This document shows, one piece after another, positions 28,381-57,262 of a DNA stretch of 64,000 nucleotides. The notes under the pieces are model-generated. The model had not been told where the DNA came from. It saw only the letters and a program-made list of their open reading frames with translations, and made no database searches. The position numbers and the translations under genes are program-made. Location: assembly GCA_951406725.2 (NCBI GenBank), contig OX597822.1, forward strand, positions 118,916,001 to 118,980,000. Reading direction: 5' to 3'. Each line of letters begins with the position of its first letter. Within the stretch, counting starts at the first letter, position 1. This DNA is from Octopus vulgaris (Eukaryota).

Positions 28381-28386
<6 letters not shown>

Positions 28387-29040
28387 TTTATTATTAAAGC
28401 TGCAAAATCATCACAAAAATATCACAACTTTAGATTACACTTTTGAGTTTCAGTCACAAATGTCCGACGAACGGGAATGCGAACCTCTGAGTAGCAGTTT
28501 TTTTGTGATATTTTTGTGATGTTTTTGCAGCTTTAATAATAAAGTATATTACTCTGCCACAGACTTTTATACATTTACTAGCAGTATCGCCCGGCGTTGC
28601 TCGGGTTTGTAAGGGAAATAATTATATAAGCATTTTTAGAGATGTAAAGTATAATAGCCATCTCAATATGGCTAACCACAAAGGGGGAGGGGTGTTACTG
28701 TAGCTTTTTACGTTCTGAGATTTAATAATAAATTTTAGAAAGTTACTTCCCTTATATATGTCAAAAATGGATTAAAAATGGGAAAAATTGATGGTAAATT
28801 TTTTTTAAAATCGTAGACTCATCGTAGACGCGCGCTAATACCCAGACGGTCTCGATATGAATCACGACTATAAGATACCCGGTTTTGGTTAAACTGCACC
28901 GCAAAATGTGGGAGTAGTTAGGAATCTAAATCGTAGGAGACAGACACACAACCTCACTTTTATATATAAAGATTTCCTCTATTTACATAATATTGAGGTC
29001 TCTTTCTTTCTTTTGTTATCTTACTGTTTTTACCAATATA
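28381..29040. mobile_element. Palindromic Penelope-type element H3 (arms 28381-28427 and 28503-28549) with a 3' tail interrupted by a Helitron
   Basis: Inverted arms; central CCGACGA hammerhead-like motif; tail 28973-29040 nearly identical to 39144-39210. Confidence 0.65.
28578..28972 (-). mobile_element. Non-autonomous Helitron, same family as 22412-22813
   Basis: TC and CTAG termini on the minus strand; inserted at A|T (acattta|tttcctc). Confidence 0.9.
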
Positions 29041-29071
29041 CATATATATATATATATAAATATATATATAT

Positions 29072-29395
29072 AGTTACAGAGATGTACTTGCATAGCAAGT
29101 GACTTGATCTGAGATCGTGTGCTGGAACGAAAACAGTTGCAGCGTTGAAGGTGTTTATAAGCCATTTAATAAACACACAAAAACCGTTAGATTCACTTCA
29201 ACATTTAAATTTAATTTGTCAAAATATTTTCGTCGCTTTGAGACCGCGACCTGTTAGCACGATATTTTTGTCAGTGAACAGGTCGCGGTCTGAAAGCGAC
29301 AAAAATATTTTGGCAAATTAAATTTAAATGTTGAAGTGAATGTAACGGTTTTTGTGTGTTTCTTAAATGGCTTACAAACACCTTCCACGCTGCAA
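29072..29395. mobile_element. Palindromic element H1 (119-bp arms 29137-29255 and 29277-29395) with variant hammerheads; partial copy at 41018-41157
   Basis: Near-perfect inverted repeat flanked by (TA)n. Confidence 0.8.
29267..29317 (+). ncRNA. Minimal type-I hammerhead-like ribozyme with G3-C8 core (GUGAACA)
   Basis: Stem I tttgtca/tggcaaa, core GTGAACA, stem II GTCGC/GCGAC, palindromic stem III AATATT; G12>A in this arm, but GAAA is intact in the opposite arm. Confidence 0.6.
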
Positions 29396-29413
29396 TATAT
29401 ATATACACACATA

Positions 29414-29448
<35 letters not shown>

Positions 29449-29769
29449 GTGTATATGTGTATGCATGTATGTGTGTGTGTGTGCGTGTCTGTGCTTGTGA
29501 TTGTCCTCCACCACTGCTTGACAACGAATGTTGGTTTGTTTACATCCCTGTCACCTAGTGGTTTGACAAAGGAAACAGATAGAATAAGTACAATGCTTAC
29601 AAAAATAAAACTGGAGTTGATTCATTAAACTACAATTCTTCAAGGCATTGCCCCAGCATGGCCACAGACCAATGGCTGGAAAAAGCAGAAGAATAAAAGA
29701 ATACATTCTCTGCTTTGGTCTTATGTTCAAGGCATGAGAAAGCTTGAGTTTACATGAGAAGGCCTAACA

Positions 29770-30032
29770 GACCTGGTAGAAACAGCAGCCAAATCTCCCT
29801 CAAATCACACCTTACTGTCTTATGTATGTATATATATATGAGCCAATGAGGGGGACCTCTACATGGTAGCTAGACCTGGTAGAAATAGCAGCCAAATTTC
29901 CCCCAAATCACACCTTACTGTCTTATCTATGTATATATGTATGTATGAGCCTATGAGGGAGACCCCTACATGGCAGCTAGACATGGTAGAAATAGCAGCC
30001 AAATCTCCCTCAAATCACACCTTACTGTCTTA
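29770..30032 (+). repeat. Three tandem ~100-108 bp units
   Basis: agac(c/a)tggtagaaa(c/t)agcagccaaat.tccc.caaatcacaccttactgtcttat at about 29770, 29872 and 29979. Confidence 0.9.
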
Positions 30033-30582
30033 TCTTTCTGCTACTTGGATATAGGTCTTATATTCGTCGTAAAAAAACTTTCCTGTCACACACTCACGCA
30101 CACGCACACACACACACGCGCACCCTCACACACACACACACGCACACACACACACACACACACACACGCACGTTAGCTTACAATTTTATTTATATATTTG
30201 CGCGTCTATGTGTGGAAAGTGGAAGTGGGAGGCAGAGTGAAAGAATCACTCACTACAGTAAGTGAATTAGTTTCATTTTATTCGTTGCCCACTGTGTGTG
30301 TGCGTTTGCGTGTGGTGTAAACCAGACTAAGAAAAGCATTTGACACACACACCAGAATGTGAGATTTCTGTAAATTTTGCTTAATTGGAGTTTAAATTTT
30401 AAAAACTGGACCTGGCATGACGCGATGCATTGTACTCTTAAAAATGCAAGGTAAATTGTAATTGAAGAAATCCTATATTGTAGATTTGTATAACTCCCAA
30501 AGGGAGGCAGATAAAATCTGCCTTTTATAATAAGAGATATATTTATACATATTATATATATATATCTATGTGTATATATATC

Positions 30583-30632
<50 letters not shown>

Positions 30633-54277: not shown

Positions 54278-54346
<69 letters not shown>

Positions 54347-54444
54347 TAATAATAAAATGACAACAAAAGAAGGAGCCCTCGAATATAAAAATAGAGGAAT
54401 AAATCACCTTCCGGACGACGTTATATATATATATATATATATAT

Positions 54445-54684
54445 AGAGGAGGAAAAGAAGGAAGGATTTCTTGCAAAAGTCTGAGGGAGGGGAGGAAGGT
54501 TTCCCTGGAAAAGCCTGAGGAGGGGTGAGTGGGAGTTCCTGGAAAATTTCGAGGAGGAGGGAGGGGAGCACGAACTTTCTGTGAACAGGAGAAAGGGGAG
54601 GAGGGGGTAAGGACTTCCTGGAAAAGTCCGAGGAGGGTGCTGTTAGAATGACAGGTTACAGGCAGAGAGAGGGGATACCATAGG
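54445..54684. repeat. 240-bp inverted duplicate of 53932-54171
   Basis: About 3 mismatches seen by eye. Confidence 0.95.
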
Positions 54685-56206
54685 GGTAATATGCCCTATC
54701 CATAAGGGAGGTAGTAGAGCAGATGCTAAAAATTATAGGCCTATCTCTCTGACCTCACACATCAGCAAAGTCATGGAACGAATAGTCCGTAAGAAACTAA
54801 TCATGTTCCTTGAAGAAAATGACTTACTGTCTGACACCCAGCATGGATTTCAACCAGGTAGAGGCTGCCTAACACAGCTCCTGCAACACTATGACTGGGT
54901 GTTGAAACAGCTACTAAATGGCTCAAATGTGGATGTAATATATCTCGACTTTGCAAAAGCCTTTGATAAAGTCGACCATGGTATGATCTGTCACAAACTG
55001 CGTGGTCTCGGCATAGGCGGGAAACTTGGAGAGTGGCTGCACAACTTCCTAAAAGACAGAAAATAGGCAGTTGTGAGCAATGGAGCCACCTCCAAGGAAA
55101 CGCAAATAACAAGCGGTGTCCCACAAAGCACTGTCTTGGGGCCACTGATGTTCATAGTGGCCCTTTCAGACATGCCTTCAGTTGCTACGATGACCACCCT
55201 TGCTAGCTATGCAGATGACACAAAAGTCTCCCACGCAATACAAAACCCTGAAAATATTGCGCATCTGCAACATGAGCTGGACACAATATACAGGTGGGCT
55301 GAGGACAACAACATGCAGTTTAATGCAGGTAAGTTCCAGGCCCTGCGCTACTGGCACACAAAGGTAAATGACGTGAAGACTGGATACACTGGCCCAGGAA
55401 GAATTGCAATCCCTGAGTCAAAATCAGTGCGTGACCTGGGCATTGACATGAGCAATGATGCATCTTTCCAAATGCATATTGCTAATCTGGTGATAAAATG
55501 CAGACGGCTAGCTGGATGGATTCTCCGAACTTTCAGAACAAGAGAGAAGGAGACACTGATGGTCCTATGGAAAACATTCGTCCTTAGCCGCTTGGACTAC
55601 TGCTCCCAACTTTGGTCACCACACAATATAAAACAAACAGCAGAACTCGAAGCAACTCAGAGAAGCTACACAAAGAAAATCGTCTCAATGCAAAATGTCA
55701 GCTACTGGGAAAGACTGAAGGTATTAAACCTCTTCTCCCTGGAGCGGAGGCGGGAGAGATATGCAGTGATATACATCTGGAAAATCCTGGAGGGTCTTGT
55801 CCCAAACTTTGGCATTCAAAGTTACTCCAACCGCAGAACGGGCGCCGCTGCGTGGTGCCAAGGATTCCAACATCACCATCAAAATACAGGTCCAGATACT
55901 GCAACAGCTTGGGTTTCAGAGGACCACAGCTCTTTAACATCCTCCCTAAATGCCCGAGAGACTTACATGGTGTGGATGTGGGTTTGTTTAAAACTAAACT
56001 GGATCTCTTCTTGTTGGGAGTCCCAGATGAACCTACCTCACGACAGGAGACACGGATGCGGGCAGCAGCATCGAACTCCCTTGTTGATCAAGTGCCACGT
56101 ATCAGAGGTGGATTCACAAACTAGTGTAGCTCATTCAGCGGTGGTGCCCCAGCATGGCCGCGGCCTTCGGGCTAAAACATTTTTAAGGATTTTAAGGATT
56201 TAAGGA
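54685..56206 (+). mobile_element. CR1-clade LINE, 5'-truncated, with one stop and one frameshift
   Basis: PIHKGG..NYRPISLTS, YLDFAKAFDKVDH, SGVPQSTVLGP, YADDTK, LDYCSQLWSP; tail (ttttaagga)n. Confidence 0.94.
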
Positions 56207-56232
56207 TATATATATATATGTATGTATGTATG

Positions 56233-56271
<39 letters not shown>

Positions 56272-56316
56272 TAGGACAATCAATACGTTGTCATAATCGC
56301 ACTACCTCCAAGCCCG

Positions 56317-56354
<38 letters not shown>

Positions 56355-56900
56355 GTATGTATGTATGTACTTATGTATATATGTATGTTTGTGTGAGTGT
56401 GTGTGTTTGTCCCACCACCACCATTGCTTGATAACCGATGTTGGTGCGTTTGCGTCCTTGTAATTAGCTGTTCAGCAGAAGAGACTGATAGAATAAGCAC
56501 CAGGCTTATAGGGAATAATTCCAGGGCTCAATTTCTTCGACTAAAGTGTGGTGCTCCAGCGTGGCCAATGACTGAAGCAAGTAACATTTGTTTCAAATGA
56601 CTGAAACAAGTAAAAGAATAAGAGAATACCAGAAGAATGTTTCGTACCACTAAACCAAGGAGGTTCTTTGGAATATCTACGATGTATTTTAAGTCTAAAT
56701 AGTAATTCTGTTTACGTTTGCATAACTGAGATATTTTGCCTGGATTACACAACTGGTACTTAATTTATCGACCCCGAAAGAACGAAAGGCAAAGTCGACC
56801 CCGGAAGAATTTGAACTCAGAACGTAAAGACAGACGGTCATAATATGCAAACATTTCTCATGGCACCAGTACACTATTTACAGATGCTAATATTTTTTAA

Positions 56901-57262
56901 TCTGTTGTGTCTGGGGAGAGTCATTTTCTTTTTGTGCTTTATAATATAACACACTCACCGGTAAAATTTCCACTTTTTTCTTATTTTTATTTTCCTAAAA
57001 TTTTCGTTGCGTCTTGCAACCTTTTCAATAGTTTTGTAACCCTTTCAATAGTCTTTTCAAGACTATTGAAAAGGTTGCAAGACTCAACGAAAATTTTAGG
57101 AAAATAAAAATAAGAAAAAAAAGTGGAAGTTTTACCGGTGAGTGTGTTATATTATTAAGCACAAAAAGAAAATGACTCTCCCCAGACACAACAGAATATG
57201 CTTCAACACACGAATCTTGCAAACCAAATCCAAAAACGAAATACATTTTTAAAGTTTTCCGT
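56901..57262. mobile_element. Palindromic element H2 (arms 56901-57032 and 57062-57195) with variant hammerheads
   Basis: Near-perfect ~130-bp inverted arms. Confidence 0.8.
56995..57031 (-). ncRNA. Minimal type-I hammerhead-like ribozyme with U3-A8 core (UUGAAAA); second copy on plus strand at 57063-57099
   Basis: CTA-TTGAAAA-G-GTTGC-aagac-GCAAC-GAAA-AT-TT-TAG. Confidence 0.6.

What the first reader, a model, noticed from the sequence alone, without database searches (positions are those of the whole stretch)
28381..57195. Family of palindromic elements carrying minimal hammerhead ribozymes with covarying, non-canonical cores
Seen: four inverted-repeat elements with different arm sequences (H3 28381-28549, H1 29137-29395, H4 37908-39133, H2 56901-57195). 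Each contains the same fold: stem I - NNGANNA - stem II - GAAA - short palindromic stem III - UH - stem I'. Where both arms carry the fold, it faces outward. The cores are GUGAACA (G3-C8), UUGAAAA (U3-A8), CCGACGA and CCGAAAA. Established: C3-G8 is a Watson-Crick pair in active hammerheads, and Penelope-like elements carry minimal type-I hammerheads that cleave as dimers through palindromic stem III and often integrate with an inverted partial pseudo-LTR. Inference: two independent compensatory swaps of the 3-8 pair argue for selected ribozyme activity in non-coding, Penelope-mobilised (retrozyme-like) elements that CUGANGA-only searches would miss. Penelope RT remnants at 13270 and 36300 point to the likely helper class.
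Basis: partly seen in the sequence, partly recalled or inferred. Interest (0 to 1): 0.85.

Follow-up and report, generated by a model that had tools for sequence, protein, structure and literature searches.

The report
Swapped-core ribozymes in Penelope transposon ends
These four DNA palindromes are short back-to-back copies of the ends of Penelope-type jumping genes, and one young family carries a hammerhead ribozyme fold whose key base pair is flipped (G3-C8), which likely means the fold is still under selection although no self-cutting has been shown.

Summary
The four palindromes are real and each belongs to a high-copy family whose majority sequence forms a minimal type I hammerhead fold. 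Most window copies are damaged: CCGAAAA (H4) is a private G8A change, H1's right arm has lost G12, H3 has lost GAAA. They are not non-coding retrozymes. They are 5'-truncated, head-to-head insertions of protein-coding Penelope-like elements (PLEs), with the known one-sided tail. H4 holds the last 35 codons of a Hydra-type endonuclease; H1 and H2 arms hold the start of their parents' ORF. The RT remnants at 13270 and 36300 show no similarity to these parents. The core claim survives and gets stronger: three related PLE families carry G3-C8 (H1), U3-A8 (H2) and C3-G8 (a sister family), with compensatory changes in stem II. U3-A8 is published; a natural family-wide G3-C8 was not found in five literature searches, but this scan noted G3-C8 hammerheads twice before in other genomes. 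No copy starts at the predicted cut, so uncut RNA was the template. Cleavage is untested. New variant of a known kind.

The parts
28381..28549 (.). H3: head-to-head PLE end copy, 47-bp arms, old family (copies 77-93% alike)
28458..28499 (+). H3 hammerhead, decayed in this copy (core CCGACGA, GAAC for GAAA, broken stem II); family majority intact, Hydra-type architecture
   Evidence: fold z +1.69
29074..29255 (-). H1 long arm: starts inside the core, carries ORF start codon at 29165 and the ~60-base tail
29264..29395 (+). H1 short arm without tail; ORF start codon at 29367 (first 10 codons)
29267..29317 (+). H1 hammerhead, G3-C8 core at 29274-29280; private G12A at 29301; predicted cut after U17 at 29310
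28565..30537 (-). Young ~2-kb Helitron-like composite that carries H1 as a passenger
   Evidence: both ends in 27 of 29 loci
37898..38800 (-). H4 left copy without tail: endonuclease end, 3' UTR and hammerhead
38696..38800 (-). Last 35 codons of a Hydra-type GIY-YIG endonuclease (88.6% identical to L225, E 3e-15)
37937..37999 (-). H4 left hammerhead, core CCGAAAA (private G8A)
38799..39209 (+). H4 right copy with tail, ending at a (TA)n run
39043..39105 (+). H4 right hammerhead, core CCGAAAA (private G8A)
56901..57036 (-). H2 left arm without tail; ORF start codon at 56924
56995..57031 (-). H2 left hammerhead, intact, U3-A8, 3-bp stem I
   Evidence: fold z -2.67
57058..57242 (+). H2 right arm with tail; hammerhead 57063-57099 (U3-A8, one stem II pair lost); ORF start codon at 57172

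Best explanation
The four elements are 5'-truncated, head-to-head insertions of the ends (pseudo-LTRs) of protein-coding Penelope-like retrotransposons, shown for H1, H2 and H4 and likely for H3, and each family carries a minimal type I hammerhead fold whose 3-8 pair is likely kept by selection. Mechanism, inferred from the anatomy and from the Anolis PLE biochemistry: the element's GIY-YIG nuclease cuts both strands of AT-rich DNA; reverse transcription is primed on each strand at one of two start sites about 60 bases apart inside the beginning of the ORF; both cDNAs run back through the uncut ribozyme towards the RNA's 5' end and are joined there. This gives a palindrome with outward-facing ribozymes and a tail on one arm only. 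The shortest H1 copies stop 19-23 bases before the core, likely the transcript's 5' end in the pseudo-LTR. The ribozyme would be a slow, dimer- or protein-assisted cutter; G3-C8 and U3-A8 keep its tertiary pair. Shown: parents, ends, tails, covariation. Inferred: priming order, transcription start, any cleavage.
For: Parents: H4's endonuclease lies upstream in 11 of 28 loci L083-L110 and in the window itself; it has the CxCx5C linker and CxxC/CxH motifs given for the Hydra clade. H1's parent is a 4.26-kb unit with a core at each end (L364) and a 1025-codon open frame (L362); all six long-ORF copies fetched from the best hits (L362-L364, L379-L381) end in the G3-C8 fold; 21 copies are 97-100% identical without stops over the 140-residue query. 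H2's related endonuclease lies upstream on the same strand in 10 of 25 loci chosen by UTR. Census: 6272 exact H1 core-pattern matches, 94 of the 100 listed G3-C8; 5119 for H2, 92 of 100 U3-A8; reversed controls 0. In 30 H1 loci chosen without reference to the core, 23 have GTGAACA and shared variation sits in loop II and 5' of stem I. Homologous trio: tree H1,(sister,H2), SH-aLRT 93 and 98; 3-8 pair G-C, U-A, C-G and two double changes in stem II. Tail on exactly one arm in 20 of 21 H1 and 13 of 13 H2 palindromes, and 20 of 20 best-hit H2 palindromes. 3' ends cluster at two sites. Same anatomy is described for PLEs.
Against: No cleavage evidence. 0 of 21 H1 and 0 of 16 H2 partner arms begin at the predicted cut; 18 and 11 span it. 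The very young sister family has C at the normally invariant position 9 in 91 of 100 listed matches, only 5 keep A9, which suggests loose constraint on catalysis. H2's stem I is only 3 pairs. The covariation count rests on 4 sequences from 3 families with a structure drawn from them, and the tree is the quick one. In the Anolis PLE, ribozyme mutants did not affect insertion in vitro.
Confidence: 0.8

Rival explanations
1. Non-coding retrozyme-like elements that self-cleave, circularise and are mobilised in trans by PLEs.
For: Most copies are short and lack a full ORF; animal retrozymes are reported to derive from PLE pseudo-LTRs (abstract and introduction).
Against: Arms carry ORF starts or ends of identified autonomous parents; no head-to-tail monomer arrays among the loci read; no 5' end at the cut site; retrozymes are defined there as tandem units with a ribozyme in each.
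Confidence: 0.05
2. The fold is kept as a structural element (RNA dimer contact, protein-binding or packaging signal next to the RT start sites) and no longer cuts at a rate that matters.
For: Templates were uncut; the successful families carry changes known or expected to slow cutting: U4C, G3-C8 partial rescue, A9C, U17; ribozyme mutants do not affect insertion in vitro.
Against: The 3-8 pair belongs to the active conformation (recalled) and is Watson-Crick in 9 of 9 clusters whose majority has A9; G5, A6, G12-A14 and U16.1 are kept in all three related families.
Confidence: 0.3
3. The swaps are neutral hitch-hikers fixed in single master copies, and the pairing is a coincidence of few events.
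For: Each family descends from few masters, so thousands of copies are one event; only two swaps are phylogenetically anchored.
Against: G3-C8 needs two transversions that restore pairing; three separate U3-A8 clusters and no A9-bearing cluster with a mismatch among 13 clusters; stem II also covaries.
Confidence: 0.1
4. DNA transposon miniatures (MITE-like) or chance hairpins.
For: Terminal inverted repeats and high copy number; H1 in this window did spread inside a Helitron-like composite.
Against: Variable 5' truncation, one-sided tails, (TA)n targets and PLE coding sequence; only 2 of 30 H1 loci taken in genome order are in the composite.
Confidence: 0.02

Closest known systems
Minimal type I hammerheads of metazoan PLEs (Cervera and de la Pena 2014, PMC4209133)
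   Same: Type I fold in the pseudo-LTR, extra base between 9 and 10.1, G10.1-C11.1, short palindromic stem III, pairs of motifs on opposite strands 100-700 bp apart, U3-A8 variant already reported in Schistosoma Cercyon.
   Different: G3-C8 family and a homologous trio with three 3-8 pair types are not in the parts read; U4C and A9C families.
Hydra-clade PLEs (Craig et al. 2021, PMC8557442)
   Same: H4 parent has the CxCx5C linker, CxxC and CxH motifs, (TA)n targets; H3 and H4 share the ACUC-N-GAGU stem III listed for several Hydra families in File S2.
   Different: Every Hydra ribozyme listed in File S2 starts CUGA with G8; H3 and H4 have C4.
Poseidon element of Anolis, PAc (Frangieh et al. 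2024, PMC11167929)
   Same: Two RT start sites inside the ORF start that define the tail; both strands cut and extended; unprocessed RNA is the template; engineered C3G/G8C partly restores protein-assisted cleavage.
   Different: G3-C8 is natural and fixed here; tail about 60 bases, not 30-40; H1 ORF starts about 60 bases after the ribozyme, not in stem II.
Non-LTR retrozymes (bioRxiv 10.64898/2026.07.22.740005; PMC7229834 seen as listing only)
   Same: Type I hammerhead, PLE-related, dispersed short copies.
   Different: Not tandem, not non-coding, no ends at the cut site.
Adineta vaga Penelope elements (Arkhipova et al. 2013, PMC3846280)
   Same: Inverted pseudo-LTRs head to head, optional tail on one of them, pseudo-LTR plus tail includes the first 12-22 codons, Inr-like start, N-rich inserts (as in the sister family).
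   Different: Ribozymes were not yet described there.

Membership tests
Minimal type I hammerhead of PLEs | Stems I and II around N3-U4-G5-A6-N7-N8-A9 and G12-A13-A14-A15.1 | tested here: met
   Family majorities; folds z -3.29 for H1 and -2.67 for H2. U4 is C in H3 and H4; several window copies are damaged.
Minimal type I hammerhead of PLEs | Watson-Crick pair between positions 3 and 8 | tested here: met
   G-C 94 of 100, U-A 92 of 100, C-G in H3 and H4 majorities; not met in the window's H4 copy.
Minimal type I hammerhead of PLEs | Short palindromic stem III and UH cut site | tested here: met
   AAUAUU, AAUU, ACUCUGAGU, ACUCAGAGU; H17 is U, U, A, U.
Minimal type I hammerhead of PLEs | Self-cleavage as dimer or with protein help | not testable with these tools
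   Only indirect: no retrocopy starts at the cut; public runs were contigs only.
Endonuclease-bearing PLE | One ORF with RT and C-terminal GIY-YIG-type endonuclease between pseudo-LTRs | tested here: met
   H1: L362, L364; H2 and H4: endonuclease end upstream. Pfam gave no hit for the H1 protein and a sub-threshold GIY-YIG hit for H4; relatives are labelled RT or GIY-YIG proteins. H3: one locus only.
Endonuclease-bearing PLE | Inverted 5'-truncated copy and a tail at one end only | tested here: met
Hydra clade (H4; H3 tentatively) | CxCx5C linker, CxxC and CxH around E and N, no CCHH, RWK and DKT motifs, (TA)n targets | tested here: inconclusive
   H4 endonuclease motifs and (TA)n met by eye; RWK and DKT not seen because no full H4 parent was fetched; L146 (H3) has a decayed RW motif and a frameshift at the DKT place. 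No tree with reference Hydra proteins.
Nematis clade (H1, H2, sister) | CX2-5CxxC linker plus CCHH endonuclease, and placement in the RT tree | tested here: inconclusive
   Linker and CCHH-like residues present, which fits Neptune or Nematis; the label Nematis is recalled from motif resemblance; no named references in the tree.
Non-LTR retrozyme | Non-coding | tested here: not met
Non-LTR retrozyme | Head-to-tail tandem units bounded by the ribozyme cut site | tested here: not met
   Head-to-head pairs; ends not at the cut.
Non-LTR retrozyme | Circular RNA | not testable with these tools
   No run on record as RNA with raw reads.

The most novel reading that the evidence does not exclude
PLE hammerheads are selected to be deliberately slow: successful families fix structure-preserving, rate-lowering cores (G3-C8, U3-A8, U4C, A9C, U17) so that most RNA stays uncut as template, while the palindromic stem III pairs two RNAs so that each cut DNA strand is primed at a different start site, which would explain why almost every palindrome has exactly one tail. 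H1 would be the first natural, genome-wide G3-C8 ribozyme in a recently active element.
Probability: 0.2. Interest if true: 0.7.

Novelty: new variant of a known kind. Interest (0 to 1): 0.42.

Why it matters
Whether PLE hammerheads do anything in vivo is open: they cut poorly and are dispensable for insertion in vitro. A natural series of C-G, U-A and G-C at the 3-8 pair in three related families, two of them young with long open frames, is evidence that the active-type tertiary pair is under selection, and it supplies ready wild-type, mismatch and rescue constructs together with a cognate protein. It also shows that CUGANGA descriptors and Rfam undercount these ribozymes: over 11,000 exact core matches for H1 and H2 alone in this genome.

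Tried and rejected
Rfam on the window returned microsatellite-driven miRNA matches and no hammerhead among the 150 of 258 rows shown; none on an intact H1 copy. A first strict descriptor without the extra base found none of the four. A first parse of H1 using GAAA in loop II gave no UH site and was dropped. H1 as a Neptune derivative: rested on L144 alone, 1 of 30 loci, rejected. H2 as a Hydra derivative: rested on L156 and L235; only 2 of 25 loci with that endonuclease had an H2 core within 1.5 kb and that family has its own decayed C3-G8 end; rejected once the true parent was found. L224 (two H2 copies 4 kb apart) is not a full element. L206's three U3-A8 motifs are not a retrozyme array. 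A second link for H3's parent was sought and not found. One search used the wrong reading frame; one search used a misregistered structure string; the 5'-end count was noisy. Dimer folding by energy did not give the stem III dimer as the lowest state for H1, H2 or H3 and is uninformative. Public runs: no RNA holder listed; contigs from four runs cover H1 and show no change of 5% or more at core positions but cannot show starts, ends or expression. Lunse et al. 2017 is not held, so its core variants could not be checked; file 1 of the Cervera supplement was not searched; bioRxiv supplements are closed.
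Full report
Setting. The window is G000:C9:118916001-118980000, in a 2.8-Gb, microsatellite-rich animal genome. A database protein nearly identical to the sister-family protein described below is labelled Octopus.

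Observation. All four inverted repeats are present at the stated coordinates and each is a high-copy family: 1987, 1073, 1766 and 1782 first-look candidates for H1, H3, H4 and H2, 40 scored each. The cores are read correctly, but the complete fold belongs to the family majority. H1: stem I of 7 pairs, GUGAACA, extra G, stem II of 5 pairs, GAAA, AUAU, UU; the window's right arm has A for G12 at 29301 while 29 of 29 near-identical copies have G, and a pattern holding that change finds only 5 places genome-wide. H2: 3-pair stem I, UUGAAAA, extra G, 5-pair stem II, GAAA, AU, UU; 37 of 40 arms share the core. H4: 29 of 35 arms have CCGAAGA; CCGAAAA occurs only in the two window arms. H3: 17 of 43 arms of this old family have CCGACGA, the commonest form, and 38 of 43 have GAAA; the window copy has GAAC and does not fold.

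Chance. With positions 3 and 8 free, a descriptor found 21 folds in 464 kb (40 arbitrary regions plus the window) against 2, 4, 2 and 1 in shuffles; 17 of 21 were Watson-Crick at 3-8 against 3 of 9. Over all 382 sequences then held (1.87 Mb, enriched for these families, no shuffle control) with position 9 also free, 13 clusters had two or more sites: the 9 with A9 were all Watson-Crick (5 C-G, 3 U-A, 1 G-C); of the 4 without A9 one is the sister family (C-G) and three do not pair and may be chance folds; 22 of 43 singletons paired. Exact genome counts: 6272 for the H1 core pattern, 94 of the first 100 listed G3-C8; 5119 for H2, 92 of 100 U3-A8; reversed controls 0.

What they are. H4: the window's minus strand 38800-38696 encodes the last 35 residues of a GIY-YIG-type endonuclease (E 3e-15), found upstream of the ribozyme in 11 of 28 other loci, with the linker and motifs Craig et al. 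give for the Hydra clade. H1: a junction upstream of the ribozyme occurs 1049 times with up to one mismatch and leads to a young PLE: a 4.26-kb unit with a G3-C8 fold at each end (L364), a 1025-codon open frame (L362), and 21 copies at 97-100% identity without stops over the query. Its ORF starts about 60 bases after the ribozyme, so H1's short and long arms hold the first 10 and about 30 codons. H2: its arm and tail encode the start of a related ORF, and the matching endonuclease lies upstream on the same strand in 10 of 25 loci chosen by UTR. H3: its parent is supported by one locus, L146, a Hydra-like RT remnant between inverted H3 copies, and by a stem III shared with H4 and with published Hydra ribozymes; no second link was found. 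The remnants at 13270 and 36300 look like PLE RT pieces by eye (motif resemblance recalled; Pfam gave no RT hit); they do not match the H1, sister or H4 proteins, and 36300 matches a different, Neptune-like protein piece.

Covariation. The RT search also found a very young sister family, 61% identical over the query, with open frames of 1310-1312 codons. Its ribozyme has C3-G8 but C at position 9: 3786 matches; of 100 listed 89 are CTGATGC, 5 have A9, 4 T9 and 2 differ at position 3. A quick tree of the C-terminal region groups H1 with (sister, H2), SH-aLRT 93 and 98; the careful search did not finish. Aligned, the three families show G-C, U-A and C-G at 3-8 and two double changes in stem II; 94% of cells pair, 1 of 500 shuffles reaches the score, and slid structures score far lower. 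This is 4 sequences from 3 families with a structure drawn from them, and H2's stem I was misaligned by two bases, so it is a demonstration, not a probability. With C3-G8 as the usual PLE state two separate double changes are the simplest history.

How the palindromes arise. In loci taken in genome order, 21 of 30 H1 and 13 of 30 H2 sites have an inverted partner within 350 bases (pairs from one palindrome can count twice); the tail is on exactly one arm in 20 of 21 and 13 of 13, and in 20 of 20 best-hit H2 palindromes. Arm 3' ends fall at two places about 60 bases apart, inside the ORF start, as for the two RT start sites of the Anolis element, whose protein cuts and extends both strands. 5' ends of 16 of 30 H1 copies fall 20-23 bases before the core; 1 of 30 runs far upstream, and three further long alignments are microsatellite artefacts. 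Contigs of four public runs stop at the same two ends. The site reads both as an initiator-like start and as a 3' splice site (both motifs recalled); no shared upstream exon was seen, so a transcription start is preferred but not shown. No partner arm starts at the predicted cut: 0 of 21 for H1 (18 span it) and 0 of 16 for H2 (11 span it); 13 of 13 H1 arms found by downstream sequence alone span it, some being the same locus or composite. The templates were therefore uncut RNA, as reported for the Anolis element. Arkhipova et al. 2013 proposed self-priming on an antisense template for such head-to-head junctions; my data do not exclude it.

A complication. The window's H1 sits in a 2-kb Helitron-like composite (28565-30537) whose two ends are present in 27 of 29 near-identical loci; it explains the 99% hits, but only 2 of 30 H1 loci taken in genome order.

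What is known. Read: Cervera and de la Pena 2014, PMC4209133 (parts 1-2 of 4, supplement passages): minimal PLE hammerheads, opposite-strand pairs, U3-A8 variant, low dimer activity. Frangieh et al. 2024, PMC11167929 (parts 1-2 of 4). Craig et al. 2021, PMC8557442 (passages, section 11, supplement parts 1-2 of 59 and one search). Perreault et al. 2011, PMC3088659 (passages, section 8): natural U3-A8, and U4C as a slower natural variant. Passages only: PMC3884650, PMC6765202, PMC8495972, PMC3846280. Part 1 of 5 of bioRxiv 10.64898/2026.07.22.740005. G3-C8 appeared only as an engineered variant in searches; Lunse et al. 2017 is not held and may list it. This scan noted G3-C8 hammerheads with an extra core base behind PLE RT genes in two other genomes (unchecked), none in this genome.

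Verdict. A real feature of a known kind: minimal hammerheads at PLE ends, inserted head to head. New are the natural, family-wide G3-C8 core in a young coding family and the three-state series in related families. Selection on the 3-8 pair is likely; cleavage is unshown, and the uncut templates and the A9C sister family point to slow or rarely used ribozymes. Interest 0.42.

Noticed in passing
window 28565-30537 (-): Young Helitron-like composite (TC start, hairpin and CTAG end; label from recalled motifs) that captured an H1 palindrome, the 3' tail of an H4-family copy (28969-29040) and a 107-base tandem repeat; copies on many chromosomes at 96-99% identity.
   Followed up: partly
L365-L368 (e.g. 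L367:2125-6200): Very young sister PLE family with 1310-1312-codon ORFs, a long asparagine-rich insert, tandem 4.6-kb units and a hammerhead with C at position 9 in most copies.
   Followed up: partly
L206, L265, L325; L327, L375: Two further families with U3-A8 minimal hammerheads and different stems; parents not sought.
   Followed up: no
L184, L195, L208, L220, L205: U4C cores also occur in two other hammerhead families, so C4 is common in this genome.
   Followed up: no
L364:5195-5225: The fixed 5' end of short H1 copies lies at a site that looks like both a transcription initiator and a 3' splice site with branch point.
   Followed up: partly
window 40995-41157: Truncated H1-family long arm with tail, no ribozyme left.
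   Followed up: partly
window about 12400-12440 (-): Decayed CTGACGA hammerhead-like motif 3' of the 13270 RT remnant.
   Followed up: no
window about 26270-26320 (-): Single U3-A8 fold-like hit with an imperfect stem III; may be chance.
   Followed up: no
L156 and L235 (L266, L271): A Hydra-type endonuclease and UTR joined to the H2 family's UTR and ribozyme at two loci: a chimera or nested insertion.
   Followed up: partly
window 551-4439 (-), 5405-8112 (+), 27106-28317, 54647-56203 (+), 35096-35935 (-): LINE remnants with RT matches for three of them and a Tc1/mariner-like remnant judged by eye from the ORF list.
   Followed up: no
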